NCBI GenBank assembly: GCA_000165345.1
Contig: CM000436.1
Span: forward strand, 64,001 to 128,000
Length of the DNA stretch: 64,000 bases
Direction: 5' to 3'
The position numbers and the translations under genes are program-made. The notes under the pieces are model-generated. The model saw only the letters and a program-made list of their open reading frames with translations, did no database searches and had not been told where the DNA came from. Below are positions 18,133 through 59,885 of this stretch, in pieces; position 1 is the first letter of the stretch, and each line of letters opens with the position of its first letter.

Positions 18133-19268
18133 TGTTTATTAATACTTAACTTATTACTCCCTAAATTAAATGTAATTTTTGTCAAGTTTTCTTCTCAAAT
18201 TAACATATGAATGTATAATTTGTAGAGTCCTTTGAATTAGCTCCAAATTAATCAAGAGGATGCTATCATCTAATTTTAATTATGTTTCTCAGCTTGGTTT
18301 TTTCTTTCCTTGACTATTAACTTTTTCCATAACTTTTTACATGTAATTTTCTTTTCAAAGAGACATGTACATAATTTGCACACATACCAATATGTATTAT
18401 CACTGGAATAACTCAATAATATAATTATGGTTTAAATTCTTTAAACACTCAGCAGTAATTTTTATGCATTTTTGCGTTTATTTGAGTAATCGATTAGTTG
18501 GTTTCCTAAAGATGTCCTTTTTTATGTTATGAATGTAAGAAAAAATGACTTATATCTCTCAATTATGATGTCTTGTTTATTCTTCAATCCAGGAAATATC
18601 TAATTCAAAATATTTTCTCGTTTCTTTAGTTTCTTTGGAAAAATATGGTAATTTGTTTTAACGTTGGATTACTTTTTTTTTTTTTTTTAATGATTAATTT
18701 TACGCAACTTGCATGCAAACACGTAATTGCAAGTTTTGTTACCGGTATTTACATGCGAACTTTCCACATAAAATTATCACTAAGGAATATCAGTGAAATT
18801 AAAGTTGAAGAAGATTGATTGAAAAAAAAAATCTAAAAATATGTGTTTTCAAGTGATAAGTTATTAAAATTACAAGTTTGATAGAGAAATATAAAATCGA
18901 AATGCCAATAAAAAAATCTTCATACTATTCTACTTAAAAGATTAATATAACAAACAGCCAGGAATTACACAAAAATAAATATTTGATAATTAGTAACTAA
19001 GTTTTTTTTAGAAATCGTATAATTTCTCATATTTATTTTCTGTAATGATTAAAAAGATCCATTTGTGTGGCGCCTTGCCCACGTAAGTGGATTTGTATAT
19101 ATGTAAAATTACATGCGTAATAAATAAAGCATAGGAAAAGGAAGAAATCGAATATTGAAGTATTTAGGTTTAAATATTTAACTTGAACAATTTTCAAGCA
19201 TTCAATACTCACATCCAGACGCACAGTTTATTTGTTAGATATAGTAGGTAATTTCTAATTTCGATTCA

Positions 19269-19812
19269 ATGGAAGAACAAGGTAGGTTTGATTATGCAAA
19301 TTTGTGAATGCAACTAATTATCTACAATTTAATTATTTTGAAAATATAAAGCAAGCACAAGTCAAAATCAAGTTCCAGCTTCTGTACTTTATCAGTCTCA
19401 AGTCAATCAAATGGGCCCAAACGGTGGAATGGGTATGGTTCAACAGGTTCCTGGACAATATTACCAGCCTCAACATGTTCCAGGGTTCAATCAATATGCA
19501 GGTTTAATGAGACCAGAGGGATTTCCAGTTTATACAACTCAATGGCCGAGCGCATTCCATGGAGGAGATCCAACTCAGGTTCAAGCACCCATACAAACTC
19601 AATATTTACCTAGCGAAACCCCTGTATATTATGCATCAGCACAATGGGATACTCAATCTTACCTCCCTATGAGCTATTATGCAGGAGCTTATGACCCAAA
19701 TGGAATGGCTTATCCATTCCCTCAATCTGGCTCCTTCCAATACGTACAAGATGGTCCAGTCATTCCAAGAAAGAGAGGTGCAAAGAAACGTTTATTCAAG
19801 TTTTGTTGCTAA
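19269..19812 (+). CDS. Q/Y/P-rich low-complexity protein with a basic C-terminus ending KKRLFKFCC. Proposed as two exons, join(19269..19281, 19352..19812); the 5' micro-exon is tentative.
   Basis: Main ORF 19411..19812. Upstream, ATGGAAGAACAAG is followed by GTAGGT and an ...ATAAAG acceptor. Splicing 19281 to 19352 gives an in-frame stop-free extension MEEQ-A-STSQNQVPASVLYQSQVNQ-MGPNGG. Confidence 0.35.
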
Positions 19813-20080
19813 CCATCAACTTTTTTTGGAGGATATGCGCATAATTTGCTGTAATACAACAAGGAATTGTTTCAGAATGCATGGAATTCTATTCTGTGTA
19901 AATATAAAGTGTTAGAATAAATTGAAGTATAGTATTTTTGATTCATGAAAAATCTTTCGGAATAAATTGGGGTAGGACCCAACTGAATGGTATTTTACCA
20001 TTTATTTTCACTCTATTTATTAATTTGTTCATTTATAATTTCTACATGTTTTTGAGTTGACCAAACTTAACATATATTCG

Positions 20081-20092
20081 TTTTGGCGGCCA
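20081..20092. promoter_or_regulatory. E2F-like box TTTTGGCGGCCA about 180 bp upstream of the RNase-PH-like exosome gene.
   Basis: Direct match. Confidence 0.45.
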
Positions 20093-20271
20093 TCTTTTTT
20101 TTTCTTACACGGCCGGAAATTGAGAGGTCGCTTTTTCTGAAAGTTACAAAATTATACATCTTAAGCGGATAATCGTGCAAAATTGAACATAGTTATACTC
20201 ATCAATATTACTTATAATTTGTTTAACTGAATTCTTTTCGTTTGGGAATATATTGTGACTTTTTAAAATCA

Positions 20272-21303
20272 ATGACGAAGTCTATATCTGACTCAGAAAA
20301 ACTATTCTTAGAAGACGGGGTTGACCAAGGAATTCGCAATGATGGAAGAGATTTGACCGATTTCAGGCCAATAGTTATTGCTCTGGATGTTATTTCTACT
20401 GCTAATGGATCTTCCCGTATAAGGAATGATGAACTTGATATTATTGTAGCTGTTAAGGTATGTTAATAATTGAATTAAAAACGATTTTAAACCCAATTTA
20501 AACTTATTCAGTGTGAGATAATCTCTGTTACAGGAAAGAATGAACCACAAACAGGGGGCTCTATTTTGGTTAATGTTGATTGGTAAGTTTTTTGAACAAT
20601 TTATTTTTCTTTATTATTGCTTTAATATTATTTAGTTCTAATATCATGGATAAAATATCCAATGTAGCACCATCATTCACAGAAGAGGACTATTCATTTT
20701 ATATAACAAACATTGTCAAGGATATGTGTTTTAAAAATTTTGATCTTTCAAAACTTACAATCTTAGAAAATAAACTCTATTGGAATATTTATATTGATGC
20801 AACTATCCTAAGTTTTGGAGGTAATATGGTTGATTGGGTAACTATAGCAATCCATACTGCTTTAAGAACTACAAGGTAAGCGATTACTTCTCAATTCTCT
20901 CATTTGGTATTTAAAATTTACTGAAAATTACGTCTACAGAATCCCAAAAATTCATGTTTCTCCCTCAATCTCAACAAAGGAGAATAACAAAGATGTATCA
21001 TATACTGTATCACCCTCAGTTTGCTCAGGCACACCGTTTCCTTTTCAAGATATCCCTTTCATAATTTCGGCTGGGTGCATTAGAGGTAAAGTAATATGGG
21101 ATATGAATATGCAAGAACAAATATGCTCAAAAACAATCATTGCACTCTCAATTAATTCAAAAGGAGAGTGCGTTGCAATGAACAAAGTCTACTCGAACAC
21201 TCTTGACCTAAACCTTATTCCAACTATAATTAACAAAGCAGCAGAGATTTCTTCTGAAATATCTAAATCATTAGATGAATTCTTCTCTAACAAACAAGTA
21301 TGA
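20272..21303 (+). CDS. RNA exosome RNase-PH-like subunit of the Rrp45/Rrp42/Rrp43 type. Four exons: join(20272..20457, 20512..20582, 20636..20875, 20940..21303).
   Basis: Each intron starts GTATGT/GTAAGT/GTAAGC and ends CAG/TAG/CAG. Phases are consistent (0, 2, 2). Spliced product: MTKSISDSEKLFLEDGVDQGIRNDGRDLTDFRPIVIALDVISTANGSSRIRNDELDIIVAVK | CEIISVTGKNEPQTGGSILVNVDC | SNIMDK...KLYWNIYIDATILSFGGNMVDWVTIAIHTALRTTR | IPKIHV...IPFIISAGCIRGKVIWDMNMQEQICSKTIIALSINSKGECVAMNK... This tracks human EXOSC9 (DGSA..LG.T.V...VK.E...P...GYV.NVD...KLVWVLYCD...DGN..DA...A..AAL). Two of the exons and a TTG-initiated first-exon ORF appear separately in the ORF track. Confidence 0.7.
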
Positions 21304-21440
21304 GCACACTAGTTAACTATAATTATATATTTTAATTTACATCTTTTATTTATTTTATTCGTAAATTTTCACACTTCCAAAGTTACCGCCAAAAGTGGGG
21401 CATAATTCAGGAGACGAATGACAGTACAAATAGTCAATTG

Positions 21441-21452
21441 TTGGGCGGGAAT
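21441..21452. promoter_or_regulatory. E2F-like box TTGGGCGGGAAT about 55 bp upstream of the AsnRS ATG. Nearby are TACCGCCAAAA (21384-21394) and GGAGACGAATG.
   Basis: Direct match. Confidence 0.5.
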
Positions 21453-21505
21453 GTAATATCTTTGCTTATTAAGCATTTTTACAAGCATAGAAACAGAAAA
21501 TAAAA

Positions 21506-23005
21506 ATGATTAAACCAGAAAAAAAATTTGTTACTGAATATTCAGTAACTGGAAGACTGAGGATAGCCTCCATTTTGGATGGCGAGGATGGTGGGGTCTC
21601 TTATATTGGAAAGAAGGTTACAGTTGGAGGATGGGCAAGAACAGTTAGAAAGCAATGCTCTGACACTTTGCTTTTCATATCTCTGAATGATGGTTCAACA
21701 TCAAGCAACTTACAATGTGTAGTAGAGAAGACTGTTAAAGGGTTTGAAGAGGGTTTAAAGGCGACAGCAGGATGTTCATTTAAAATAACTGGTACAATAG
21801 TAAAGTCACCAGCTCAGGGACAGTCAGTAGAGTTACTTTTGAATACAGGCGATGATGAGCTCAAAATTTGCGGATTGTGTGATGCCTCAAAATACCCACT
21901 TGCAAAAAAGCATCATTCAAAAGAATTCTTGAGGGAAGTTGCCCACTTGCGTCCAAGAAGTCAGTTCTTTAGCTCAGTTATGAGAATCAGAAATTCTCTT
22001 GCTATTGCAATTCATGAATATTTCCAAAAGAACGGTTTTATGTACATTCACACTCCAATTATTACTGCAGCAGACTGTGAAGGAGCAGGAGAAATGTTTC
22101 AAGTAACTACAGTTTTACCACCTGAATCTAAAAACAACATTTCCAACATCCCTGCATCAAAGATTGAGGGAAGCCAAGATATGGCAGTTGACTATAAAAA
22201 GGATTTCTTTGGAAAGGCTTCTTATTTGACTGTTTCTGGACAACTTGCTTTAGAGAACTTTGCATGCTCTATGTCTGATGTTTATACATTTGGACCAACT
22301 TTCAGAGCGGAAAATTCTCACACAACAAGACATCTTGCTGAATTTTGGATGATCGAGCCTGAAATGGCATTTGCTGATCTTAGTGATAACATGAAACTTG
22401 GAGAAGGACTTCTTAAATACACTGTAGAATACGTTTTAATTAACAATATGCCCGATTTATTATATCTTGACAAAAATATAGAAAATGGACTTGTAGAAAG
22501 GTTAAAGGTTATTTGCAAAGAAGAATTTGCAAGAATTTCCTATACCGAAGCAATTGAGATGCTTAAACCTCATGATAAGGAATTTACTGTTCCTGTCTCA
22601 TGGGGCATGGATTTGGGTTCAGAACATGAAAAGTATATTACAGATGTACTCGAAAAAAGACCTTGCATAATCTACAACTATCCTAAAGATATCAAGTCTT
22701 TTTATATGAAATTGAATGAAGACGGAAATACAGTTGCAGCAATGGATATCCTAGTCCCAAAAATCGGAGAGGTTATCGGTGGTTCTCAGAGAGAAGATGA
22801 CATTGAAAAATTAGAGAACGCAATAAAGAGCAGAAATATGGATCCAGCTCCCTATTGGTGGTATAATGAACTAAGAAAGTATGGTTCTGTTCCACATTCA
22901 GGGTTTGGTTTAGGATTTGAAAGACTAATCATGATGGTTACCGGCGTAGAGAATGTCCGTGACGTCATACCATTCCCTAGATACCCCAATCATTGCGAAT
23001 TCTAA
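21506..23005 (+). CDS. Asparaginyl-tRNA synthetase, class IIb (cytosolic type).
   Basis: 499 aa. N-terminal OB anticodon-binding domain. Class II motifs: FRAE..TRHLAEFWMIEPEMAF (motif 2 region), GGSQRED, and WWYNELRKYGSVPHSGFGLGFERLIMMVTGVENVRDVIPFPR (AsnRS-typical motif 3). Confidence 0.9.
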   Translation: MIKPEKKFVTEYSVTGRLRIASILDGEDGGVSYIGKKVTVGGWARTVRKQCSDTLLFISLNDGSTSSNLQCVVEKTVKGFEEGLKATAGCSFKITGTIVKSPAQGQSVELLLNTGDDELKICGLCDASKYPLAKKHHSKEFLREVAHLRPRSQFFSSVMRIRNSLAIAIHEYFQKNGFMYIHTPIITAADCEGAGEMFQVTTVLPPESKNNISNIPASKIEGSQDMAVDYKKDFFGKASYLTVSGQLALENFACSMSDVYTFGPTFRAENSHTTRHLAEFWMIEPEMAFADLSDNMKLGEGLLKYTVEYVLINNMPDLLYLDKNIENGLVERLKVICKEEFARISYTEAIEMLKPHDKEFTVPVSWGMDLGSEHEKYITDVLEKRPCIIYNYPKDIKSFYMKLNEDGNTVAAMDILVPKIGEVIGGSQREDDIEKLENAIKSRNMDPAPYWWYNELRKYGSVPHSGFGLGFERLIMMVTGVENVRDVIPFPRYPNHCEF

Positions 23006-23253: not shown

Positions 23254-23288
23254 GTGGCGCCAGAATTCGGGCGGCAAATATCCCGCAA
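23254..23288. promoter_or_regulatory. Cluster of E2F-like boxes GTGGCGCCAGAATTCGGGCGGCAAATATCCCGCAAA about 290 bp upstream of the V-ATPase E start codon.
   Basis: TGGCGCCA palindrome plus GGGCGGCAAA and CCCGC half boxes, read directly. Confidence 0.5.
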
Positions 23289-24335: not shown

Positions 24336-24764
24336 TTGAAGCGGAAAAAATTTCAAAAAGAAGAAAAGTATTAGCTGTATTTATTTGTATTTAAGAATTA
24401 TCCATAATTTTTAAATTTATACGTATTTTTTTTTTTAATTTACTGTGAATGCATTTACTTACGTAAATTACATAAATGCCGGTATAGGGGAAATTGTCAT
24501 AGAAATTTGCCGGTTAATTATTTTTTTCCCACACTGATTTTAGGAAAAAGCTTGAAATCAAAGTTAGAATTAAATGGAATTAAAGCAACTTTTGTTTGCG
24601 TTGTTTTTTTTCTGTCGAGTTTAAAATAAAGTGTGAATTAAGAGTAAATGTTTTCATTAGAAGCTTCTCAAGATAAGGTTTATTTATAGGAAGTTAAGTT
24701 TCAGTTAGTAAATTAGTAACGTCGTCATTTGCACACATAAGAGAAAAGTTTAAAGCTTGGAAAA

Positions 24765-31448: not shown

Positions 31449-31471
31449 ATACCGGTGCAGAGTGGCGGGCT
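31449..31471. promoter_or_regulatory. ATACCGGTGCAGAGTGGCGGGCT: a TACCGG box plus an E2F-like box about 230 bp upstream of the inhibitor-2 start (minus strand). A second E2F-like box AAAGGCGGGAAACC lies at 31858-31871.
   Basis: Direct match. Confidence 0.45.
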
Positions 31472-32294
31472 CATATTTAAAGATTTAAATTAATAAATTA
31501 ATGTCAATATTTCTAAAAGTAAATAAACTAAGAATTAAAATTTAATGTAAATTAAAATTCAATTATTTCATAAATCACAAATCATATCAAAGTTTGGAAT
31601 ATAATTATTGTTTTTGATCAATGTTATTATAAGCATACTAAATCTTATATATACTATAGTAAACAAATTCACAAATATGTATAAAGCAATTCAAATAAAA
31701 ATTTAACCTAAAAACTCAATTATTATTAATTACGGTTAAAGGAATAAAATTAACATTGGTGAGAAAATTAATTAAAAATTATAACAGCATGTATTTTGAT
31801 CACGAAAAAAATTTTTGCAGATATTTAATTTTATTATTTATTATTCGATACCTTTTGAAAGGCGGGAAACCTATCACGTCTCATCATTGTCTATAAATGT
31901 CTAATATTGTCTCAAAAAAAAAATACAATATGTTATATATAAATTGAATAAACAAGGGCAAATAAAATTATAAATATATAATTGAATAATAATAATAATA
32001 ATAATATTAAATATAATTGCCTTGAATAGTAATATATTTAAATATTTTAGCGGCGAATAAAGGAATACAATTTGACAACAAAAACAAGAATAATTGTTTC
32101 TAATAACAATTAAAAGTCCTCATAAATTTACGAGTGGAAGAAATTTTCAAGGTATAAGATTGACAAAGATTTATAAATCTGAGTTAATTTTGAGCCAGTT
32201 TTTAATAAGGGAAGAAGTACGTAAATAATATTTAAATTTATATATATACACATAACATCCATCGAGTTTAGTAATTAAATATTGAAAGGAAAAA

Positions 32295-32867: not shown

Positions 32868-33553
32868 ATTAAGGTATTTAGAAGGAGGAAACATTGCACA
32901 ATATGGTGATTGTGAGGTTGATTATTACAAATTCATATTAATAACATGAAAGTATCCAAAACTAATAGAATAAAATATTAATAGGAAATATGCTATAAAT
33001 AAGTTTCTTCTTCCTAATGTTTTGCTTTCTTCTTTTGTAAATATTATTTCCTATAGATTACTAACTATTGGAAAAGGGAGGTATGAGTATTGCAGTAAGG
33101 GCATAGAGTTTAGGTTTAATATTCACAGCTACACTTTGATAATGAGCCATATAGTTTAGAGAAGCAATTTGACTAATAAGTACAAGTTATATAAAGGCAA
33201 AGATTTTCAAATATCTTCTCCCTATCATAATTTGCTCAATATTCTGTATAATCCTTGTGTTAATTATAAATTGTTTATTGATCCCTGGCATGAAAAGTTT
33301 TGAATTATTGTAATTAATTAATTTTTCAAAGTAAGAGGAACCTTGCGAGATTCTAATAACTCTAAAAGCAATAATAATACAATTTCAAAGAATATTCAAT
33401 TCATCTATATGTAACTTATTCACAGTACACAAAATTATTATCTTATAATTAAAGGATTTATTTTTTTAAAAGAATGTTTTTTTCTTCCAATCCTCCCCCC
33501 TAAAGTTATTCCTATACCGGCATTAAGTACCGACACATAATGTCAACTAGACT

Positions 33554-40057: not shown

Positions 40058-40384
40058 ATATGTCGGTACCACGGCAAGCAAGGTTGACGAGTGCATGCAA
40101 TATCAGAGACAATAGTTGCAACAAAAACAACAGAAAAAATGAACAAAGGATAGAAAACTAATAATTAAAGTGAATAATAATAATAATAACAATGACAATT
40201 ATATTATTTAAAAGTTTCAAATGATACATAATGCTATCGCGTAAATTCCAGATAGAGATTTTAATCTTCCTCTTGTTAAGAATAAGTCAGAAAAATACAT
40301 TGACAGCTCTCCGTCTTCATTTTTTTTATCATTCAACCTTGTCAAAATTATTTGTTTTATTATAAAATTTCAGCCCAAATTAAA

Positions 40385-41164: not shown

Positions 41165-41862
41165 CTTTACTAATTCTTATTTCTCCTAAATATCGTCAAA
41201 TTCCTGATACCTTTCCAGTTAATAAGTTTTTTGAGGATATAAAAAAAATGTTCTCCAGTAAAGCTATTTTTAACTTTTAAAAAAACAGCAACTTCTTGTT
41301 TCTTCTTCTTCGACCTTAATTTAATAACCTTTTACAATTAATATTCAGATTATTACACCGCCTATTTAATTTACTTAGTCCAAGGTATGTTGTTTTGTAT
41401 ATAATTTATATATAAAAGAGACGCCAAATACTAAAAATTAATATATAACTATTTAAAATGTTTTTGAGACGTTTAATAAATTTATGCTTAATTTTAATTT
41501 TTCAATTATAATTATTAAATTAATGTTAACCTAAAAATATAAATATATATTTATTCATTTATTCATTAATTTATATATAAAATATAAATACAATTATTTT
41601 TGACCTTAACCTTTATAATATACCGGCAAAAAAATGTCGTCTCGTCTCCCAATTATATTATACATGTCTCAATTAGAAAAAAAATTATAAATTAACTTAT
41701 GACTACAAGTATAAATACCATTGAGACAGAAGTTTGTTTAAAATATTTATTGACAATATCATTATTAATTAATTTAAGCTTGAATAAATTTTAAAGTATT
41801 TAAGTTTATTTAATAAAATTTAATATACAATATATTTATTAATTACCAATTATAGTATTATT

Positions 41863-43354: not shown

Positions 43355-43470
43355 CTATATTACATGTGGATAAATACCGGCATTACTATTAATTATTTCG
43401 TCCACATTTTTTTAATGCATGTGCATGTTTTACCCGCCTAAATGAAGGTTAAAAATTAAAATACCGGTAG
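43355..43470. promoter_or_regulatory. Composite promoter block upstream of the DNAJC8-like gene: ACATGTGGATAAATACCGGCATTA, GTCCACAT, GCATGTGCATG, TTTTACCCGCCTAAA (E2F half box), ATACCGGTAG.
   Basis: All elements read directly. Each also recurs in other intergenic regions of the window. Confidence 0.45.
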
Positions 43471-51991: not shown

Positions 51992-52182
51992 GCCTTTTTG
52001 TTCATTTTTTCTTTTTAGATAACAATCTCGTTATTGTATATTCATAGCTTTAATTATTATATTTTTTTTTTAAATAGTTTTCTAAAGAAATAATTTTTAA
52101 AAACTTTCTCCTATAAAAATTAGTAAATTACCTATTACGTCATTTTTTACATATAGCTTTTGTACACGTATAATCATCTATA

Positions 52183-52208
52183 TACCGGTATTGCATGCAT
52201 CCACATGA
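52183..52208. promoter_or_regulatory. Composite ATACCGGTATTGCATGCATCCACATG (TACCGGTA palindrome, then GCATGCA, then CCACATG) about 520 bp upstream of the SAS-6 gene. A further TTTTGCATGCCTCCCC at about 52236.
   Basis: Direct match. The same three element types co-occur at 28718-28752 and 43355-43470. Confidence 0.45.
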
Positions 52209-52723
52209 ATTTACAAACATCAATAAAAAAAACTTTTGCATGCCTCCCCACATAAGCAATTGCGCGGTACTAGTTAGAGCAAAAAAAAAAAGTGAGTTAA
52301 TTCATTTTAATATTGTAAAAGAGAGGAAATAAAGAGTTTCTAAAAGAGGGTGGAAGGTAGGAATTAATAGCAAATAATTAAGTGACTAAAAAGTAAGGAG
52401 GAGGATAGATGTAAGATTTGGTCTCAGTTGGTGAATTCTTCAAGTTTATTTTGTGTAATTAGAGTTTATTTGCTGAAATACTGTGGATGAGAATCGCGGA
52501 ATAATATTTCTGGTTACTTTTTATATGAAAAGTTTTAATAAATAATTAGGTTTAAGAAAAGAGTGATTTGAATTCTACTGGCTGCTATAAAAAAAGAAAC
52601 CGTAATAAAATTTATAATACTTATACATTGTAACGTTTTTCAAGTAATAGAGCAATAATTACTGATTTTGTGAAATAGAAGAAATTCTGAGTTTTCAAGA
52701 ATCAATGCTAATTTAAGTTTGAT

Positions 52724-55495
52724 ATGCATAATTCAATGAATTTCCATGAAGAAATGGAATTGCGAAATAGCGAAAGTTTAAGAATAGAAAGCGACTTTGA
52801 AACATTTCAAGGACGTAAGAGTAGAACAGGGTATAACAGGTTTTTGAATGATGATGAGGTTGAAAACGTCGTACACATAAAAGATGTACCAATTTATATA
52901 AAATATAATTCAATTTCTTCAACATGTACTAGCACAGCCCCATCCACCCCAAACTCTCGTGAATTTGACCGTCTAGAAAATAATGCAAGACTTAATAACA
53001 ACATTGTAAATAATGAAAGTTTGCCGCTCCGTTCACAAGTTTCTCACTTTGGAAAGGTGGGAGAGGAAGGATTTTGTAATAATACAGGTAATAGTTTTGG
53101 TAGTTCATTATATAATAGAGGAGGAATTTTGGAGAGCTCGAATATGACTATGCAGTTTTTTAACTTCAGGATAGTTAAAAGAAGGCACTATTCAAGTTCC
53201 AGTAACTTATTAAAAAGTTTTAACAGAGTACATATAGAAATGACCAAGCCGAACGATTTTTCTTTCTTATTGAATAGCGATATTAATGATGGAAATGACT
53301 TTCTACACTTGAAATCAGAACAACGACTTTTGGTTGATTTTCAGGAATTTCCGGTGATGCTGGTTGATTTATTGAATAGGTCTAAGGGAAATGGGTTTTC
53401 TGAAAGCTATTTTGATGCAAGAGTGAATAATAAAGGCATAAATATAGAAAAGGAGACAGTATTTCCTGGTATAAATAGGTACGATCCTGGTAATTTACGG
53501 TCCAGCTTTTCTCCATCAGCAAGCGATAATTTGAACTCACTCAAGATTGTTTTGAACTTGAATATTTCAGAAGGAGGGATAGAGCAGTCATATTTAGGGG
53601 GGCTATCTTCAGGAGCAACTTTCAATTCTGCAGTATTAAGTCGGGTTGATTCATCTACATTGCATTTTGTGGAATTAAACCATTACAAGGAAATTGTTCA
53701 CTTATCACTTCCATTTGAGATGGCTAATGAAGCTTTCTTTAGGGACTATATTTTAAGACATTTGAATAATTATTTTGATTTGTCTAATAGACAACAGAAG
53801 ATAATTACTGGCTATGAGGCAGATCTAGAGTCATTAAGGAAGGAAATAGGACTACTTAATGAGAAACTTTCAAAGACTAATTATCTCTCAGCTCAGAATG
53901 AACGTGATATGTCTGAAAAGTTCCAAGCTGAGATTAAGAGAATTTTTGAAAGGTATGAAAACGATTACAATCAGATAAAAATGATTTATGAGGATACACA
54001 TAATAGAGAGTTGGAGCACTGGAACCAAGAAAGATTATCAAATGAAAAGAAAATTAAAGATTTGCAACAACAACTTGACGAACTTGGAAATGCATTTAAT
54101 GAGCTTAGTAAGTCAAAATCTAGCTTGGAAAGGTATATCAAGGATGACAAAGAAACTAATAATGGGCTTAAAGCTAAGCTGGAGGCAATTCAAAGCTCAT
54201 ATGACGTATTATCCAAGATAAAGGATGAGCAGGAACAAGAGTTGAACAACTTAAAGCTGGAGTATAACAGTTCTATTGAGGCCAATAAGACTCTGAGGGA
54301 CGAAATAGATAAAAAGAAAAAAGAAATTAGTGAGTTAGATACCGCATTAGACGATGCATGCAAAGAGATCGAGAAAGGAAATCAAATTATTTCAAGCCTT
54401 CAGACATCTTTGGGAAATGTAGATTCTAAGTATAAGCAACAAATGACAAGTTTTAGTAATCTAAAAAGGAGTTTTCAGCAAATTGAAAGCAAGAATAGGA
54501 ATTTTGAGGAACGGATTAAGGACTATGAACAATCATTGGATGATTCAAATAATCGTCAGGAACAGCTTATAGAGGAAAATGAGAGATTGAGGAAGATTTT
54601 AATCGAAGCTGAGAGACAAATTGAGGTAAATCAAAGCGTCATATCATCATTGAAGAGACAAATATCTATCAATGAATCGAATTTTTATGGCTTTGACCAC
54701 AATTTTAATGCTGGAATGTCCAGGAGTTACTCTAAATCTTATCAGGGTTTATATAATACTATAGGCTCAGGACAAAGTAATTTAGCTTCTCTGAGTGGGA
54801 CCCACTATTCACTCGGAAACTTGCAGCCAGCTATTGCTTCCGTTTCGGCATCTCGAAGTTCGTATCTCGGTACACAATCGATTAACTCTGTCAAACATAG
54901 AAAGAGATCAGAAGCTACATTTGATGCTAATTCCGTTAATAGAAAATATTCTATGTCTGTTCAGCCAAGAAGATCTCAGACTTGGACAATGGAAAGCGTA
55001 AATCATGAACCGAGATACACTAGTGAAGCTTTTGAAGTAAAAAATCAAAAGAGAAGTGCTGAGACATCGAGCTCAAGGGATCGCCAGAGGATTTCAAGCT
55101 CTTTATATTATCGTGATTTAAATGATGGAACCGGACATGGTGGAGGTAGCAATAATAAAAAGGCATTAGAGACTATAGATGAAAGAGCTTCTTCTATTTT
55201 CACTCCACCAAATAACAGGAAAAAATTAGAGGAAGCTGGAAAGAACAGAAATATTAATTCAAAGAATACTACTAAAGCTTATAAGGAAGGAGAGATTCTT
55301 AATATGGAAGGAACTACATCGTTTGATATTACTGATAAAACAGAAGTTGAAAGGAGCGATTACCACGAAATTGACGATATATTATTTCAACTGGAAGGAA
55401 CTGGAGATAGTTTTGAAAGATCAGCCAAAGATTTGACCACTCCAAGACTTAAAACTCCAATTAAGCCGGTAATATCTGACAACAATGGGAGCTAG
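52724..55495 (+). CDS. SAS6: SAS-6 (spindle assembly abnormal 6, centriole/cartwheel protein) homologue with a long N-terminal extension. Alternative start at 53144.
   Basis: 923 aa. PISA/head domain: RVHIEMTKPNDFSFLLNSDINDGNDFLHLKSEQRLLVDFQEFPVMLVDLLNRS (compare human RVSIRMSIEL...[47 protein letters not shown]). LHFVELNHYKEIVHLSL matches LNVVETNPFKHLTHLSL. A ~300-aa coiled coil follows. MTMQFFNF at 53144 aligns with the human head-domain start. Confidence 0.7.
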   Translation: MHNSMNFHEEMELRNSESLRIESDFETFQGRKSRTGYNRFLNDDEVENVVHIKDVPIYIKYNSISSTCTSTAPSTPNSREFDRLENNARLNNNIVNNESLPLRSQVSHFGKVGEEGFCNNTGNSFGSSLYNRGGILESSNMTMQFFNFRIVKRRHYSSSSNLLKSFNRVHIEMTKPNDFSFLLNSDINDGNDFLHLKSEQRLLVDFQEFPVMLVDLLNRSKGNGFSESYFDARVNNKGINIEKETVFPGINRYDPGNLRSSFSPSASDNLNSLKIVLNLNISEGGIEQSYLGGLSSGATFNSAVLSRVDSSTLHFVELNHYKEIVHLSLPFEMANEAFFRDYILRHLNNYFDLSNRQQKIITGYEADLESLRKEIGLLNEKLSKTNYLSAQNERDMSEKFQAEIKRIFERYENDYNQIKMIYEDTHNRELEHWNQERLSNEKKIKDLQQQLDELGNAFNELSKSKSSLERYIKDDKETNNGLKAKLEAIQSSYDVLSKIKDEQEQELNNLKLEYNSSIEANKTLRDEIDKKKKEISELDTALDDACKEIEKGNQIISSLQTSLGNVDSKYKQQMTSFSNLKRSFQQIESKNRNFEERIKDYEQSLDDSNNRQEQLIEENERLRKILIEAERQIEVNQSVISSLKRQISINESNFYGFDHNFNAGMSRSYSKSYQGLYNTIGSGQSNLASLSGTHYSLGNLQPAIASVSASRSSYLGTQSINSVKHRKRSEATFDANSVNRKYSMSVQPRRSQTWTMESVNHEPRYTSEAFEVKNQKRSAETSSSRDRQRISSSLYYRDLNDGTGHGGGSNNKKALETIDERASSIFTPPNNRKKLEEAGKNRNINSKNTTKAYKEGEILNMEGTTSFDITDKTEVERSDYHEIDDILFQLEGTGDSFERSAKDLTTPRLKTPIKPVISDNNGS

Positions 55496-55943
55496 GAAGA
55501 TCGAGTATTTTCTATTCCATGAAAAATTTACAAGAAATTTTCTCTGTTTCCTTTTGCTGTCTCAATTCAATTTTGTGATGGTTAAAGTTAATTAGTTATT
55601 CATAACTCAAATTGAAAGATAAAAAAGAAGTTATTCAAAAATATATTCTATACATACAGGAAGCCATATTTATGTTAATGAATATCATTACACAGAGTAA
55701 TAACAGTATTATTATCCAAAAACTTCTACAAAACTAGCATATATTTCTTCTCTATGGTAAATGGATATAATTTTGGTACTAATCTATTATCTTGAGATAC
55801 AAATTATTATATAATTTATCATTTTTCCTTACTTTTTTGATTAGGAAAGAGAATCTAGGCAGCTATTAAGGAAATCTTGGATGATAATTACTCCTTTAAA
55901 ATTCAATGGTCTTGGTAAGAGATAATGGTAAAGCTTCCAATAT

Positions 55944-56387
55944 TTAACATTTTTCAGAGTAACGATGGAGTGCTGATAGAAGATCATCAGGGGAAATGGC
56001 ATTATCTCCATCACCATCTAAGTTAGTTAACATAGTTTTTAATTCTTCCTCACTCATTGAAAGACCAAGTCTGGAAGCACATGCTGAAAGATCCTCAAGA
56101 TCTATTGTTCCAGTCTTCTTGATATCAAGGCAACTAAAGATATTTACAGCATCTTCAACAGTGAATTTTTTTATCTCATTTCCACTGTTTACAAGACTTA
56201 CAAATCCTGCAAAATCTAGTTTACCTCCACACTCCTGAGTTAGTGAGTTTAGTCTTCCAATGACTGTGTTATCTAATGGAATATCCATACACGTAGCTGC
56301 AGCTCTTAAGAACCCAACATCTAACCCTGATTTACCATCAAGTAAATCAAAAACATCTCTCAATTCTCTAACTTCAGTACTGTCCAT
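55944..56387 (-). CDS. EF-hand protein (calmodulin/myosin-light-chain-like; the EF loops look partly degenerate).
   Basis: 147 aa. Four helix-loop-helix units (DLLDGKSGLDVGFL; ...CGGKLDFAGFVSL; DIKKTGTIDLEDL; DGDGDNAISPDDLL). The last two loops are closest to canonical. Confidence 0.65.
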   Translation of the reverse strand: MDSTEVRELRDVFDLLDGKSGLDVGFLRAAATCMDIPLDNTVIGRLNSLTQECGGKLDFAGFVSLVNSGNEIKKFTVEDAVNIFSCLDIKKTGTIDLEDLSACASRLGLSMSEEELKTMLTNLDGDGDNAISPDDLLSALHRYSEKC

Positions 56388-56743
56388 TTTTTTTAAAATA
56401 AAATCAAACTGCCAATATTAGTATTAGTTTTCCTTGGATAAAGCCAAATAAAAGAAAATTAATAAAGCTCTGATATATAATTACTCTTTTTTTTTTTTTT
56501 TAAATCTTTACAAATACAACTTCCTTTATAATCTATTTATTACCTTGGCTTAAACAAATACAACAAATCTCGTCAGAAAATAATAATTCGCTTCCACTAT
56601 ATTCGTATTTTATTATTCTCCCTTCCCCTTTGCTCCTCTTTAATACTAAGCTTATATCTGAGATGCTTATATTTATACTTTCTCTTATTTTCCATGTATT
56701 GCCGTTTACATGTCTAATATTATGCACACTTTAATGATGCAAA

Positions 56744-56786
56744 TGTGGCGGCAAAAATGCCCGCCAGACATGCCATATGGCGGTAA
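56744..56786. promoter_or_regulatory. Triple E2F-like cluster TGTGGCGGCAAAAATGCCCGCCAGACATGCCATATGGCGGTAA. It sits in the bidirectional spacer between the EF-hand gene (minus) and the OB-fold gene (plus), 72 bp upstream of the latter's ATG.
   Basis: Direct match. E2F sites are classically upstream of DNA-replication genes. Confidence 0.55.
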
Positions 56787-56857
56787 TGGTGGGGAATTGT
56801 GTAAAAGATTAAAAGAGCTAATTTAGTAGAGAATATAAAGGATGGAAAAGAGGGATT

Positions 56858-57636
56858 ATGTTAGGTAGAGGAGAGGACAATGTGAATGATAGAGACAGTA
56901 ATAGTTTGGAAGATAGTGTGAACGGTTTAGTGGAGGATGAATTGGCAGAGATGATATTGCTGCAGGAAGTGTATGATTTAAGGTTGGAGAAAAAGAAAAT
57001 TAGAGTTGCTGGAATTGTAAAATCCGTGGACTTGATTGAGCAGGAGATTGCGATATTCTACGAGTCCAGAAGCTTAAGAGTGAGTTTGAGGTATGGATTT
57101 TAACTTATAAAGTGCATGGTTTTGGTGAAGGAAAGTAAATATATAGATAATAATTATTGAAAAAAAAAGAAATTAAAAGAAGGGGAGGAGCCATCGTAGT
57201 CAGGTGTGTAATAAGGATAAAAATAACCAATAACACGAGCAATGCTGGCGCCTTTACACGTCATTTCAATGTTTTTAGGTTTTAAACATTGTTTTACCAA
57301 AATCATGTATCATTTCCATAGAGAAAAAAAACTTTTTTTCTTCGAGTAGAAATGATTACTAGATTAATTATCTAACTTTAATATTAATTTATTTTTAGGA
57401 ACTTGAAAAAACCAAGGATTCAAAGCATAGAAAAAGGAAGTAAGGTGGAAGTTATAGGTTACATAATAAATCAGGAAGATTTCAATACATGCGAACTGAA
57501 AGAAAGCAAAACTAAGGGGAATTTGGTTATGATCGCTCAAGTAATAAGAAATATTGATGAAACTAATTTATATTTCCATCAATTAAGTATTATTTTACGT
57601 AGAAAAATACTAAATTCCGTGAATATTATATATTAA
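56858..57636 (+). CDS. Small OB-fold protein of the RPA/CST type (RPA3/Ten1/Stn1-RPA32-like), 156 aa. Two exons: join(56858..57090, 57399..57636).
   Basis: The two ORF-track pieces 56858..57103 and 57403..57636 (the second TTG-initiated) are joined by a GTATGG...TTTTTAG intron (308 nt) with matching phase (2+1 gives AGG). The product shows the OB-fold pattern of RPA32/Stn1: KKKIRVAGIVKSVDLIEQEIAIFYESRS (compare [25 protein letters not shown]) ... GSKVEVIGYIINQEDFNTCELKESKTKGNLVMIAQVIRNIDETNLYFHQLSII (compare [38 protein letters not shown]). It lies directly downstream of the triple E2F box. Confidence 0.4.
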
Positions 57637-57941
57637 AGGGTTATAATTTAATTAATTTTATTTTCTAATTGGTTTTTTTTTGCATAGCTTGTATCATATA
57701 TTAAATTATCAATAATAAATGGGTGTCTGCTAATTGATTCAATCCATTCAATCCATCTAAATAGGTAAAGAAAAAAGAGTTAATTTCAAAGTCAGATTTT
57801 GTTCAATTTTTTTTTTTATTAAATAATTTATGTAATCGTAATTATTATTGAATTACGTGTTTTTTGCATGCATGCAAAAAATAACGGTAATTAAATAAAT
57901 TATTAAAAAAAAAAATTGGTATTAGTGATCCCAAAGTAAAC

Positions 57942-59447
57942 TTACTTGTTATAGTTTTCTTCTGAAATAGTTGAATAGATTTTGGAGTAGATTGAGTTAA
58001 CTTTAAAAGATTCCATTTCTTTAACAAAATGGCAATCCTTAATATGAAATGAGAGAAATTGAATTGCAAAATCAGTTTGATCAGTGGAAATGCTTCTTTT
58101 TGTATTATATGAGTTATAAAAAACTCTATCTAGAAGAAGTCCTTGGCTTGGAGCTAAATGAATGGAAAATTTATCGGGTAAAAAACAAAGTTGAATTCCA
58201 TTGCTTGGAGCTGTTCCTCTAAAAATTTCTATAGCTAATGCTACCATTTTTCTTATTTGGTGCAATAGAAATGACTGGCCTTTAATTATAATCTTAATAA
58301 GGTTAATTTCCCCTTTAATTTCGTTTTGACTAACTTTTACTACTTTAATTTCTTCAATATGCCTCCAAGAAGTGGAATCTTCATAACTTGATTTTGATGT
58401 AAAATTATGAAAACTATGTGTACCAATATATTCATTCAAAATTGATTGAAATCTCTTTAAATCTTCATCTGATAAACTGAATCTCCTTTTTGGGTCTAAA
58501 TAATCCTCAATTTTATAATTTACCAACCTGTAATCATTTCCAAAACCATAGTTGTTGAGTCTATTAGTTTGATGAAATTCAAACTGTTTCATCCTCTCTC
58601 CTTTTTCATCATCCTCATCATCTTCTTCTCTTTCAACTTCTTCTTCGATTTCATTGACTTCAGGGTTATGGTTTAAACTTGTATTGATAGTTTCTCTTTT
58701 TCTTTTTTTACTTGCATTCTTTAATTCATTTAATCCTTTCTCAAATCTAGATAAGCTTGCTTTGTTAAGCTCTTCTTTGAAATCATCATTGTTAATATTT
58801 ACATGTTTAAGAAGAAATTCAGGCATTAAGTATTCGTATTGTCTTCTAGAACAATCTGTTCTGGCATCAAAATTCTTTGTTACTCTAAAAATCTTAAAAA
58901 CCTTAATTTTTGTTGATTCTAAAAGTTCATTGAGTTTAGTTACTATATAATCAAGAATCAATAATTCATCCAAAAATTCATCCAAATTATTTTTTAAAAC
59001 TAATGAAGCTCCTCCTAATAGAGGATTTATACTCTGAATTTTATCTACTCCATTCTTATTTAAAATATCTCTCTCTTCTTTAAGTCTTTTACAGATTTCT
59101 ATTATTTTTTCATCAACATCCTTATTCTTTAAAATAAGTTCTAACTCGTCATTTATTTTAATTTTAGCTCTAAAAGATACTACTTGACAAACTGAATGTA
59201 CCCCTTTATCAGTTCGCCCAACTCTAGACCACTTAATCTTCTTTAATAATCCTCCTTGATCATCATTTTGTTCATTACTTAAAAAAAACATACCAAGCTT
59301 CTCTAAACAATCTTCCATTTCTCCTTCAATAGTTCTCAATTCTTCTACCTTTTTATTATTTCTCATTTGAATCTGCATCCCATGATAATCTGATCCATCA
59401 TATCCAAAGGACATGCAATATGTTTTCATAGGGATTACCTCTTTCAT
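57942..59447 (-). CDS. tRNA pseudouridine synthase of the TruA family (Pus1-like) with an acidic insert.
   Basis: 501 aa. YCMSFGYDGSDYHGMQIQ; catalytic-Asp motif SRVGRTDKGVHSVCQVVS; conserved C-terminal FLLHQIRKMVA. Confidence 0.78.
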   Translation of the reverse strand: MKEVIPMKTYCMSFGYDGSDYHGMQIQMRNNKKVEELRTIEGEMEDCLEKLGMFFLSNEQNDDQGGLLKKIKWSRVGRTDKGVHSVCQVVSFRAKIKINDELELILKNKDVDEKIIEICKRLKEERDILNKNGVDKIQSINPLLGGASLVLKNNLDEFLDELLILDYIVTKLNELLESTKIKVFKIFRVTKNFDARTDCSRRQYEYLMPEFLLKHVNINNDDFKEELNKASLSRFEKGLNELKNASKKRKRETINTSLNHNPEVNEIEEEVEREEDDEDDEKGERMKQFEFHQTNRLNNYGFGNDYRLVNYKIEDYLDPKRRFSLSDEDLKRFQSILNEYIGTHSFHNFTSKSSYEDSTSWRHIEEIKVVKVSQNEIKGEINLIKIIIKGQSFLLHQIRKMVALAIEIFRGTAPSNGIQLCFLPDKFSIHLAPSQGLLLDRVFYNSYNTKRSISTDQTDFAIQFLSFHIKDCHFVKEMESFKVNSIYSKIYSTISEENYNK

Positions 59448-59652
59448 CTTAATTTTTCAATTTTTTTCCTTTTAACTTATAATAAAAAAAACCTATCTAA
59501 TTATCTAAAACATTTATTATATTAGAAATAGTAATCAAATGAAATCAGAAAAACTTTTTTTAATCTTGAAATATCACTTTAAATTCAAAACCTTAGATTA
59601 CTAATATTTTCCTCCATCTAATTATATTTTTTGATACTTAGAAAAGTCTAGA

Positions 59653-59670
59653 CTAGTTACCGGTAACTAG
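59653..59670. promoter_or_regulatory. 18-bp perfect palindrome CTAGTTACCGGTAACTAG (core TACCGGTA), preceded by TCTAGA, about 210 bp upstream of the Pus1 start (minus strand). Related AATGCCGGTATAG at 59747-59759, TTACCGCCTAAA at 59778-59789 and GCATGC at 59805-59812.
   Basis: Read directly. The reverse complement is identical. Confidence 0.45.
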
Positions 59671-59885
59671 TTTTTTTTATTAAAAAATTACTTTTAATAT
59701 TCTTCATAACCAAAAATTATTTTATACTTAAATATTTTAAATAATTAATGCCGGTATAGAAAGTAGTTTTTTCTAATTTACCGCCTAAACTGAATTTTTT
59801 TAATGCATGCAAGTACAATAATTAAATTATTAAAAGTGTTGAATTTTCTTTTTAAATTATATTAAGAAACTTTTTGACTTTAGAA

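What the first reader, a model, noticed from the sequence alone, without database searches (positions are those of the whole stretch)
18739..59759. Recurrent palindromic TACCGGTA / ATACCGGCATTA motif family in intergenic regions
A motif with a CCGG core flanked by TA occurs repeatedly in non-coding spacers. TTACCGGTAT occurs at 18739-18748. ATACCGGTGC occurs at 31449-31458. ATACCGGCATTA occurs identically at 33514-33525 and 43374-43385. ATACCGGCAAAA occurs at 41619-41630. ATACCGGTAG occurs at 43461-43470. ATACCGGTATTG occurs at 52183-52194. The 18-bp perfect palindrome CTAGTTACCGGTAACTAG occurs at 59653-59670. AATGCCGGTATAG occurs identically at 24475-24487 and 59747-59759. In this roughly 30 % GC sequence a GC-containing 8-12-mer recurring about 10 times is far above chance. 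The motif usually sits 100-500 bp upstream of a start codon, next to E2F and GCATGC boxes. I do not recognise it as a described apicomplexan cis-element; it could be the site of an unassigned (for example AP2-family or Myb-like) factor.
Basis: seen in the sequence. Interest (0 to 1): 0.6.

Follow-up and report, generated by a model that had tools for sequence, protein, structure and literature searches.

The report
Conserved ATACCGGYAT promoter motif in Cryptosporidium
A short near-palindromic DNA word (ATACCGG[T/C]AT) recurs in the gene-upstream spacers of this Cryptosporidium parvum chromosome 8 segment and is kept at the same promoter positions in related species, so it is most likely the docking site of a still unidentified transcription factor that current motif catalogues of this parasite do not list.

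Summary
TACCGGYA occupies 10 loci, against 0.4 strand matches expected. Nine of the ten loci lie in the 21 kb of intergenic DNA.

The window is C. parvum chromosome 8, including cgd8_370 to cgd8_490. In its intergenic DNA the motif is the third strongest k-mer family, after E2F (GGCGGG/GGCGCC) and GCATGC.

It is not a dispersed repeat, and no tRNA or Rfam RNA family was detected anywhere in the window. The sites lie 134-668 bp from the nearest ATGs, in either orientation, and close to E2F and GCATGC boxes.

In syntenic loci from C. meleagridis, C. ubiquitum, C. canis and an unnamed Cryptosporidium, the sites are kept at orthologous promoter positions more often than background 6-mers. One two-site cassette is inverted in place in C. 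ubiquitum. The signal fades in C. felis and C. bovis.

The motif is absent from the published C. parvum motif lists I could read, and from the recorded specificities of the array-tested ApiAP2 domains. An identical consensus (ATACCGGTAT) is reported in oomycete promoters, also without a known factor.

Best reading: an orientation-independent transcription-factor site in housekeeping promoters. The factor is unknown. This makes it a new member of a known kind, of moderate interest.

The parts
18739..18748 (.). TTACCGGTAT, a palindromic-core site in the divergent spacer between the 543-aa gene (16501-18132, minus strand) and the 157-aa gene (plus strand)
   Evidence: C. ubiquitum keeps CCGGTAACAAAACTTGCA at the aligned position; the site is lost in C. 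canis and C. felis.
24475..24487 (-). CTATACCGGCATT (read on the minus strand), 285 bp upstream of the MSH6 (cgd8_370) ATG
   Evidence: The block AATTTCCCCTATACCGGCATTT is identical in C. ubiquitum and C. canis; C. felis has CCCCCTGTACCGGTCTT.
24506..24517 (-). Second, variant site in the MSH6 promoter: TTAACCGGCAAA (minus strand), 31 bp from the first
   Evidence: CCGG at 24510. CCGGCAAAT is conserved in C. ubiquitum and C. canis.
31449..31458 (+). ATACCGGTGC in the divergent RPL9 | IPP-2 spacer, 12 bp from a GGCGGG E2F box
   Evidence: CCCGCC-N8-CCGGTAT is kept in C. ubiquitum, C. canis and the unnamed species L008; C. meleagridis has CCTGTAT.
33513..33534 (+). Two-site cassette TATACCGGCATTAAGTACCGAC, 169 bp upstream of the 905-aa gene and 39 bp from a GGCGCC box
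   Evidence: Kept in C. meleagridis. The same 22 bp (19/22 identical) is inverted in place in C. ubiquitum. L008 has a single TGTACCGGTATAGG.
40062..40071 (-). Possible variant site GGTACCGACA in the cgd8_420 promoter, 15 bp from a GGCGCC box
   Evidence: The aligned position reads GGTACCGG in C. ubiquitum and C. canis, and GGTACCTG or GGTACCTA in C. meleagridis and L008.
41620..41631 (+). ATACCGGCAAAA in the middle of the divergent RPL7A | RPL5 spacer, next to GAGACGAGACGA
   Evidence: CCGGTA follows GAGACGAGACGA-N10 in C. meleagridis, C. ubiquitum and C. canis; it is lost in L008 and C. bovis.
43374..43385 (+). ATACCGGCATTA, the distal site of the DnaJ (43622-44500) promoter
   Evidence: Kept only in C. 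meleagridis.
43461..43470 (.). ATACCGGTAG, the proximal site of the DnaJ promoter, 157 bp from the ATG and about 30 bp from the E2F + CATGCACATGCAT module
   Evidence: ACGTAYTACCGGTAT is kept in C. meleagridis, C. ubiquitum and C. canis. L008 (CCGGTATA) and C. bovis (TATACCGGCATTAAT) have a site on the same side of the conserved GGCGGG box.
52182..52193 (.). ATACCGGTATTG abutting GCATGC, in the HDAC to SAS-6 (cgd8_490) spacer
   Evidence: C. canis has TGCCGGTATAG. C. ubiquitum has CCAGTAC and C. felis ACGGTAT inside an otherwise conserved block.
59653..59670 (.). CTAGTTACCGGTAACTAG, an 18-bp perfect palindrome upstream of the Pus1-like gene
   Evidence: C. ubiquitum keeps TTACCGGTTAA, but the long palindrome is not conserved; the site is lost in C. 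canis and C. felis.
59747..59759 (-). CTATACCGGCATT (minus strand), the second site upstream of the Pus1-like gene, 29 bp from an E2F-like box
   Evidence: C. canis has CAATACCGGTATTAG at the aligned position; C. ubiquitum has ATACTGTAAT.

Best explanation
ATACCGG[T/C]AT is a sequence-specific protein-binding site. It acts as an orientation-independent promoter element of Cryptosporidium parvum and its close relatives, and sits within tens of base pairs of E2F and GCATGC boxes in the upstream modules of mostly housekeeping genes. These genes include ribosomal proteins L5, L7A and L9, a DnaJ protein, MSH6, a Pus1-like pseudouridine synthase and SAS-6. What is shown: statistical over-representation, restriction of the full 8-mer to non-coding DNA, proximity to known promoter boxes, retention at orthologous positions across species, and tolerance of inversion. 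What is inferred: that a protein binds the motif. The near-palindrome suggests a dimer, or a monomer reading TACCGG plus YA. It is also inferred that binding helps to set up or activate these promoters together with E2F/DP. The factor is unidentified. Candidates are a DNA-binding Myb-type protein (the canonical Myb site TAACGG differs from TACCGG by one base; this is from my own knowledge) or an ApiAP2 protein for which no array motif was obtained.
For: Enrichment: 10 loci against 0.4 strand matches expected. The motif is the third-ranked k-mer family in intergenic DNA after E2F and GCATGC. Location: 9 intergenic and 1 coding locus for the 8-mer; 3 of the 9 intergenic loci are in divergent spacers that contain no 3' end. 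Neighbourhood: median 56 bp to an E2F-like box and 68 bp to a GCATGC-like box, against 186 and 498 bp for random intergenic positions. Conservation by local alignment: retention is 5/10 against a 20% control in C. ubiquitum (p 0.035), 6/10 against 15% in C. canis (p 0.001), and 4/5 against 17.5% in L008 (p 0.004). Global pairwise alignments agree for C. ubiquitum (6/14 against 19%, p 0.036) and C. canis (7/14 against 8.9%, p 8.5e-5), but not for L008 (1/6 against 10%, p 0.48). Conserved modules are visible in the alignments. Independent instance outside the window: a CCGGTAT site upstream of the 814-aa gene in both C. ubiquitum and C. canis. Intergenic enrichment is also seen in the 23-kb region A of C. 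meleagridis, C. ubiquitum, C. canis and L008. Orientation: non-palindromic copies occur in both orientations relative to the downstream gene, and a 22-bp two-site cassette is inverted in place in C. ubiquitum. The pooled consensus from 53 intergenic instances is ATACCGG[T/C]AT. The sites are not part of a repeat, and no tRNA or Rfam family was detected in the window.
Against: There is no binding, chromatin or transcription-start data, so function is inferred from sequence statistics alone. Only 64 kb of C. parvum plus about 20-kb orthologous loci were available, not the whole genome. The orthologous sites are not independent samples. Several sites turn over: 43377 is kept only in C. meleagridis; 52185 is mutated in C. 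ubiquitum and C. felis; 59660 and 18742 are lost in C. canis. There is no intergenic enrichment in C. felis (1 vs 2.6) or in the C. bovis region (1 vs 0.55), and only weak enrichment in regions B and C of C. ubiquitum and C. canis. The half-site TACCGG is also over-represented in C. parvum coding DNA (11 vs 2.7), which hints at some context bias. Earlier genome-wide motif searches did not report the motif (PMC3734150, PMC1779779). ATAC-seq peak analysis reported E2F1, a poly-T motif and E2F6 as its top three enriched motifs (10.1101/2025.01.17.633476).
Confidence: 0.7

Rival explanations
1. The motif binds a general regulatory or boundary factor, comparable to yeast Reb1 (site TTACCCG, a Myb-like protein; from my own knowledge). 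Such a factor would hold promoters nucleosome-free and block read-through transcription from the upstream gene in this very compact genome. It would not be a stage- or pathway-specific activator.
For: Six of the nine intergenic 8-mer loci lie between the stop codon of one gene and the start of the next gene on the same strand, 134-651 bp past the stop. The target genes are functionally mixed housekeeping genes that fall in different expression clusters (2, 14, 69, 82) of Oberstaller 2013. The sites work in either orientation. Read-through and polycistronic transcripts are reported for C. parvum (10.1101/2025.01.17.633476).
Against: There is no direct evidence. The Reb1 consensus differs (CCC rather than CC). 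Whether C. parvum has a Reb1/TTF-I-type protein was not tested. Three loci lie in divergent spacers, where no read-through needs blocking. Convergent spacers are too short in the window to be informative.
Confidence: 0.15
2. There is no function. The recurrences reflect a context-dependent mutational or compositional bias that preserves CCGG mainly in a TA-flanked context, plus shared ancestry among closely related species.
For: TACCGG is also in excess in C. parvum coding DNA (11 vs 2.7). Of the 40 CCGG in the window, 21 carry a TA on at least one side. Enrichment is absent in C. felis and C. bovis.
Against: A bias would not confine the full 8-mer to intergenic DNA (9 vs 1 despite half the length). 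It would not place the motif next to E2F and GCATGC boxes. It would not preserve it at orthologous positions in C. canis and L008, whose spacers are otherwise about 50% identical and have 45-47% GC rather than 30%. It would not preserve an inverted 22-bp cassette.
Confidence: 0.1
3. The motif is an RNA-level or 3'-end signal (terminator, polyadenylation-associated element or hairpin) that belongs to the upstream gene.
For: Several sites lie 134-650 bp downstream of a stop codon. The 59653-59670 copy is an 18-bp perfect palindrome that could form a hairpin.
Against: Three loci are in divergent spacers with no 3' end. Copies occur in both orientations, and one cassette is inverted between species. 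The extended palindrome is not conserved in C. ubiquitum or C. canis.
Confidence: 0.03
4. The sites are remnants of a dispersed repeat or miniature mobile element.
For: Two pairs of copies are identical over 12-13 nt: ATACCGGCATTA at two places and AATGCCGGTATAG at two places.
Against: No direct or inverted repeat family includes the sites; only low-complexity families were found. Flanks beyond about 13 nt are unrelated. The sites are syntenic across species rather than variably inserted.
Confidence: 0.02

Closest known systems
Catalogued C. parvum upstream motifs: E2F, AP2_1 (TGCATGCA), G-box, GAGA, CAAT and the unknown sets (Oberstaller 2013, PMC3734150; review PMC12246861, Table 3)
   Same: The same kind of object: a 6-10 bp word over-represented in the short upstream spacers. 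It co-occurs with E2F and GCATGC boxes in the same promoter modules.
   Different: The sequence differs (TACCGGYA has no GCGC/GGCGG, GCATGC, GGGG or GAGA core). It is absent from the 25-motif table and from the 2025 review table. The genes that carry it fall in different expression clusters, which may explain why cluster-based discovery missed it.
Oomycete promoter motif ATACCGGTAT (Plasmopara halstedii streme-5, equated there with Phytophthora infestans motif-9 GTACCGGTA; PMC10031896)
   Same: The consensus is identical to the pooled Cryptosporidium consensus ATACCGG[T/C]AT. It is found upstream of genes, it is palindromic, and its factor is unknown. Oomycetes and apicomplexans both belong to the SAR group.
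   Different: It belongs to a different phylum. The reported gene set is enriched in effectors, proteases and transcription factors rather than housekeeping genes. Whether a homologous factor is involved was not tested, and convergence on a short palindrome is quite possible.
Plant DRE/CRT element TACCGACAT, bound by DREB-type AP2/ERF domains (from my own knowledge)
   Same: It is one base away from TACCGGCAT. Exact TACCGACA variants occur at 33528 and 40064, the first within a conserved cassette. Apicomplexans have AP2-domain proteins.
   Different: Most sites have a CCGG core, not CCGAC, and about half are palindromic. No array-tested C. parvum AP2 domain is recorded with a CCG-containing motif (PMC12246861, Table 4).
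Myb-type sites: c-Myb TAACGG and yeast Reb1 TTACCCG (from my own knowledge)
   Same: TACCGG is one substitution from TAACGG and one deletion from TTACCCGG. Reb1-type sites are orientation-independent and sit in promoters of housekeeping and ribosomal-protein genes. C. parvum has 16 annotated Myb-domain proteins, a few of them listed as DNA-binding with unknown specificity (PMC12246861, Table 6).
   Different: The match is not exact, and no binding data exist for any C. parvum Myb protein.
Toxoplasma ribosomal-protein promoter element TRP-1, TCGGCTTATATTCGG (cited in PMC3734150; sequence from my own knowledge)
   Same: It occurs in ribosomal-protein promoters together with a GCATGC-type element (TRP-2). 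There is a loose CGG...TATA resemblance to CCGGTATA.
   Different: The sequences do not align convincingly. The Cryptosporidium motif is not restricted to ribosomal-protein genes; the ribosomal-protein-specific boxes in this window are GAGAC[GA].

Membership tests
Transcription-factor binding site / promoter cis-element | Over-represented relative to a composition-matched background | tested here: met
   Ten loci against 0.4 strand matches expected. In intergenic DNA, ATACCGG occurs 11 times vs 0.76 under an order-2 model and vs 1.7 under an order-3 model.
Transcription-factor binding site / promoter cis-element | Preferentially located in non-coding upstream DNA, near other promoter elements | tested here: met
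   The 8-mer has 9 intergenic and 1 coding locus. Sites are 134-668 bp from ATGs. Median distance is 56 bp to E2F-like and 68 bp to GCATGC-like boxes.
Transcription-factor binding site / promoter cis-element | Retained at orthologous positions more than the surrounding non-coding DNA | tested here: met
   By local alignment: C. ubiquitum 5/10 vs 20%, C. canis 6/10 vs 15%, L008 4/5 vs 17.5%. Global pairwise alignments give the same result for C. ubiquitum and C. canis but not for L008 (1/6 vs 10%). Not met in C. felis or C. bovis, apart from one or two sites.
Transcription-factor binding site / promoter cis-element | Bound by a protein and required for normal expression | not testable with these tools
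   This needs DNA-affinity capture, DAP-seq or protein-binding arrays, and reporter mutagenesis.
ApiAP2-binding motif | Matches the array-derived specificity of a C. parvum AP2 domain | tested here: not met
   The review's Table 4 (PMC12246861) lists AP2_1-like, AP2_2-like, GTGTGT, GCGTGCA, AAAA and G-box; Oberstaller 2014 adds GGTGCACC. None contains ACCGG. Four AP2 proteins are recorded as not binding DNA in the arrays, so they remain open.
E2F/DP site | Core [C/G]GCGC[G/C] or GGCGGG flanked by T/A runs | tested here: not met
   TACCGGYA lacks that core. The E2F boxes are separate elements 12-120 bp away at most sites. TTACCGCCAAA words are E2F variants, not this motif.
Dispersed repeat / mobile element | Similarity extending beyond the core; terminal repeats; variable presence at orthologous sites | tested here: not met
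   No repeat family passes through the sites. Flanks are unrelated. The sites are syntenic across species.
Oomycete ATACCGGTAT promoter motif | The same consensus sequence upstream of genes | tested here: met
   The pooled consensus ATACCGG[T/C]AT matches ATACCGGTAT and GTACCGGTA as quoted in PMC10031896.
Oomycete ATACCGGTAT promoter motif | Recognised by a homologous factor | not testable with these tools
   The factor is unknown in both lineages.
Plant DRE/CRT (DREB) element | Core RCCGAC | tested here: not met
   Only 2 intergenic copies read TACCGAC (33528, 40064); the other 11 intergenic TACCG[GA] loci read CCGG.

The most novel reading that the evidence does not exclude
ATACCGGTAT is the site of an ancient factor shared by oomycetes and Cryptosporidium, probably Myb-like. 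This factor acts as a general promoter-organising and boundary protein in compact genomes: it keeps promoters open beside E2F and stops read-through from the upstream gene. On this reading it would be a functional counterpart of yeast Reb1 that has gone unnoticed in alveolates.
Probability: 0.1. Interest if true: 0.7.

Novelty: new member of a known kind. Interest (0 to 1): 0.45.

Why it matters
Transcriptional control in Cryptosporidium is poorly mapped. Current catalogues list E2F, GCATGC-type, G-box, GAGA and CAAT motifs, and most AP2 specificities are redundant. In this window, a third conserved promoter word with no assigned factor is nearly as prominent as GCATGC. That gives a concrete handle for finding a non-E2F, probably non-AP2 regulator of housekeeping genes. 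A defined 10-bp bait can be used for affinity capture. There are at least three promoters with conserved sites suitable for reporter mutagenesis: cgd8_370 (MSH6), the DnaJ gene and the RPL5|RPL7A spacer. The identical consensus in oomycete promoters raises a testable question of deep conservation against convergence. If the genome-wide test fails, the finding reduces to a local curiosity.

Tried and rejected
**Dispersed repeat.** The repeat finder over the whole window returned only low-complexity families, and none passed through the sites.

**RNA genes.** The Rfam gathering scan and ARAGORN found nothing in the window.

**Ribosomal-protein-specific element.** All three ribosomal-protein genes in the window have a site in an adjacent spacer. 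So do MSH6, DnaJ, SAS-6 and Pus1. The truly ribosomal-protein-clustered boxes are GAGAC[GA] and TTGAGACA.

**AP2 assignment.** The listed array specificities contain nothing similar. The supplements of the AP2 paper are not held.

**Literature search.** Searching for the word with Cryptosporidium gave only primers and unrelated hits, apart from the oomycete paper. Bankier 2003 is not held. The text of Seidl 2012 does not spell out the motif.

**Conserved coding-region copy at 38393.** The constant part can be explained by an A/T-G-I-E peptide written in preferred codons, so I did not pursue it.

**Global MAFFT alignments.** These misplace some sites, for example the C. bovis and L008 DnaJ-promoter sites. 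I added a local-alignment retention test with random intergenic controls. Low-scoring local hits can land on non-orthologous motif copies, so those numbers are approximate.

Full report
**Identity of the window**

The 923-aa protein encoded at 52724-55495 is found unchanged on a 1.34-Mb chromosome of assembly GCA_048859185.1. The Pus1-like protein at 57942-59447 is 100% identical to a C. parvum entry. Relatives of the 1090-aa protein at 36538-39810 form a graded Cryptosporidium series, from C. hominis at 98% identity to C. ryanae at 43%. Gene names in a supplementary table of Oberstaller 2013 place cgd8_370 (mismatch repair), cgd8_420 (coiled coil), cgd8_440 (RPL5) and cgd8_490 in the window. 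The window is therefore C. parvum chromosome 8. It is about 31% GC and about 67% is covered by ORFs of at least 90 aa.

**The observation**

Eight are at the stated coordinates and two are shifted by one base.
- TACCGGYA gives 15 strand matches at 10 loci, against a mean of 0.40 in dinucleotide-preserving shuffles.
- Nine of the ten loci are in the 20.9 kb of intergenic DNA. One, at 32416, is inside the RPL9 coding sequence.
- In an unbiased ranking of all 6-, 7- and 8-mers in the intergenic DNA, the TACCGG/ATACCGG family comes third, leaving aside the simple (TA)n and poly-A words. It follows the E2F words (GGCGGG, GGCGCC) and GCATGC/TGCATG.
- Enrichment survives an order-3 background (ATACCGG 11 vs 1.7).
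- One caveat: the 6-bp half-site is also in excess in coding DNA (11 vs 2.7). The full 8-mer is not (1 coding locus).

**What the motif is not**

- No direct or inverted repeat family passes through the sites.
- The flanks of the copies are unrelated beyond 12-13 nt.
- The window has no Rfam family or tRNA.
- TTACCGCCAAA-type words that share TACCG are E2F variants (TTTGGCGGTAA), not this motif.

**Anatomy of the sites**

- Oriented copies read (C/A)TATACCGG(C/T)AT(T). Four of them share CTATACCGGCATT or ATACCGGCATTA.
- Pooling 53 intergenic instances from C. parvum and the fetched loci of seven other Cryptosporidium species gives ATACCGG[T/C]AT: A at position -1 in 33/53, T or C at +6 in 44/53, A at +7 in 37/53 and T at +8 in 31/53.
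- The sites lie 134-668 bp from the neighbouring start or stop codons. Three of the nine intergenic loci are in divergent spacers (18742, 31452, 41623). The other six lie between tandem genes.
- Non-palindromic copies occur in both orientations relative to the downstream gene.
- The sites are much closer to E2F-like boxes (median 56 bp) and GCATGC-like boxes (median 68 bp) than random intergenic positions are (186 and 498 bp).
- By Pfam, the adjacent genes are RPL9, RPL7A, RPL5, a DnaJ protein, MSH6, SAS-6, a Pus1-like synthase, IPP-2 and three proteins without a Pfam match.
- Four of these genes sit in four different expression clusters of Oberstaller 2013. This offers a simple reason why per-cluster motif discovery did not report the word.

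**Comparative evidence: loci and conserved modules**

I fetched perfectly syntenic loci of 21-23 kb around three anchors:

- **Region A** (window 26.5-49.8 kb): C. meleagridis, C. ubiquitum, C. canis, C. bovis and an unnamed Cryptosporidium from a Logan assembly, here called L008.
- **Region B** (47.9 kb to beyond the window end) and **region C** (6.5-28 kb): C. ubiquitum, C. canis and C. felis.

Several C. parvum sites sit in recognisable conserved modules:

- **DnaJ promoter.** ACGTAYTACCGGTAT lies about 30 bp from TTTAGGCGGGYAAAACATGCACATGCAT. It is kept in C. meleagridis, C. ubiquitum and C. canis. L008 and C. bovis (TATACCGGCATTAAT) have a site on the same side of the conserved E2F box.
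- **RPL9 | IPP-2 spacer.** CCCGCC-N8-CCGGTAT is kept in C. ubiquitum, C. canis and L008.
- **RPL5 | RPL7A spacer.** GAGACGAGACGA-N10-CCGGTA is kept in three species.
- **MSH6 promoter.** AATTTCCCCTATACCGGCATTT is identical in C. ubiquitum and C. canis, and is TGTACCGGTC in C. felis. A second conserved copy, AACCGGCAAAT, lies 31 bp away.

An additional CCGGTAT site lies upstream of a gene beyond the window end, and is shared by C. ubiquitum and C. canis.

**Comparative evidence: retention statistics and turnover**

Local alignment of 84-bp segments, with random intergenic segments as controls, gave these retention rates for CCGG plus a TA flank:

| Species | Motif sites retained | Control rate | p |
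|---|---|---|---|
| C. ubiquitum | 5/10 | 20% | 0.035 |
| C. canis | 6/10 | 15% | 0.001 |
| L008 | 4/5 | 17.5% | 0.004 |

Global pairwise alignments gave the same direction for C. ubiquitum and C. canis, with C. canis at 7/14 vs 8.9%. For L008 the global alignments showed no excess (1/6 vs 10%).

A 22-bp cassette with two sites, TATACCGGCATTAAGTACCGAC, lies upstream of the 905-aa gene. In C. ubiquitum it is present at the same place but inverted, with 19/22 bases identical. L008 has a single palindromic site there. That argues for orientation-independent DNA recognition and against an RNA-level signal.

Turnover is also evident. Site 43377 is kept only in C. meleagridis. Site 52185 is mutated in C. 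ubiquitum and C. felis within an otherwise conserved block. Sites 18742 and 59660 are lost in C. canis.

Intergenic enrichment is clear in region A of C. meleagridis, C. ubiquitum, C. canis and L008. It is weak in regions B and C of C. ubiquitum and C. canis, and absent in C. felis and C. bovis.

**Mechanism**

The pattern fits a protein-binding promoter element: a short near-palindrome, restricted to non-coding DNA, next to known promoter boxes, kept across species while its surroundings diverge, and tolerant of inversion. I take this as the best explanation (confidence 0.7). Binding itself and any effect on expression are inferred, not shown.

A more specific reading is a general promoter-organising or boundary factor of the Reb1 type. 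Three observations are compatible with it: the mixed housekeeping targets, the position of the motif between tandem genes, and reported read-through transcription in this parasite. It rests on analogy only (0.15).

A purely compositional origin is hard to reconcile with three findings (0.1):
- the intergenic restriction of the 8-mer;
- its neighbourhood of E2F and GCATGC boxes;
- its retention in species with 45-47% GC.

An RNA or 3'-end signal and a dispersed repeat are contradicted by the data.

**Comparison with what is known**

- The motif is not among the 25 motifs of Oberstaller 2013. It is not in Mullapudi 2007, nor in the motif table of the 2025 review.
- The review's table of primary binding motifs for all 18 C. 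parvum AP2 proteins contains nothing with ACCGG. Four of those proteins are recorded there as not binding DNA in the arrays. In the primary study some individual domains gave no motif, for example cgd6_5320_D1 to D4, cgd4_1110_D2 and cgd6_1140. The AP2 idea is therefore unsupported but not excluded.
- The ATAC-seq preprint reports only its three most enriched motifs, which were E2F1, a poly-T motif and E2F6.
- The closest published sequence match is in oomycetes. ATACCGGTAT (Plasmopara halstedii) is equated there with GTACCGGTA of Phytophthora infestans, and no factor is known.
- Three resemblances recalled from my own knowledge are leads, not tests: the plant DRE TACCGACAT, Myb TAACGG and Reb1 TTACCCG.
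- Bankier 2003 could not be read.

**Verdict**

This is a real, conserved and apparently uncatalogued promoter word of the C. parvum clade: a new member of a known kind. Interest is moderate (0.45). It would rise if the genome-wide test and factor identification succeed, or if the oomycete parallel turns out to reflect a shared factor.

Noticed in passing
window 41418-41721 (RPL5|RPL7A spacer) and 31877-31908 (upstream of RPL9): GAGACG, TTGAGACA and TAGACA boxes cluster in the two ribosomal-protein spacers, with six and four copies. TTTGAGACA is conserved in all six species compared, including C. bovis. These boxes match the 'Unknown set 1' motifs (GAGWCA, WTAGACR, VYGTCBC) of Oberstaller 2013 and look specific to ribosomal-protein genes in this window.
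   Followed up: partly
window 33513-33534; L005 16190-16211: The 22-bp two-site cassette TATACCGGCATTAAGTACCGAC is inverted in place in C. ubiquitum relative to C. parvum and C. meleagridis (19/22 identical), between conserved flanks. L008 has a single palindromic site at the same place.
   Followed up: yes
window 38393-38410 (inside the cgd8_420 CDS): CCGGTATAGAA is identical in five species whose proteins are 58-91% identical to the C. parvum protein. This is probably protein and codon constraint (A/T-G-I-E-L-L), but an internal regulatory site was not excluded.
   Followed up: partly
window 5170, 21384, 40018, 56781, 59779: TTACCGCCAAA (= TTTGGCGGTAA) recurs in spacers. It appears to be an E2F-site variant with GGCGGTAA in place of GGCGGGAA.
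   Followed up: no
window 40062-40071; aligned positions in L004, L005, L006 and L008: GGTACC is conserved about 10 bp from an E2F box in the cgd8_420 promoter in five species. The following bases vary (GACA, GG, TG, TA). GGTA/TACC may therefore be the constrained half-site.
   Followed up: partly
window 52255-52275; aligned in L009-L011: ACTAGTACCGC[GC]CAATT and TATGTGGGGAGGCATGCAA are conserved in four species, including C. felis, in the HDAC to SAS-6 spacer. This promoter block is unusually well preserved.
   Followed up: no
window 13000-14050, 19812-21506 and 56387-57942: Spacers that look empty in an ORF scan hold intron-containing genes in the annotated orthologous loci: VMA21, an RNase PH exosome subunit and a Ten1-like protein. 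The intergenic fraction used here is therefore slightly overestimated.
   Followed up: partly
window 1570-1625 and 63300-63400: Long (TA)n tracts lie near both ends of the window.
   Followed up: no
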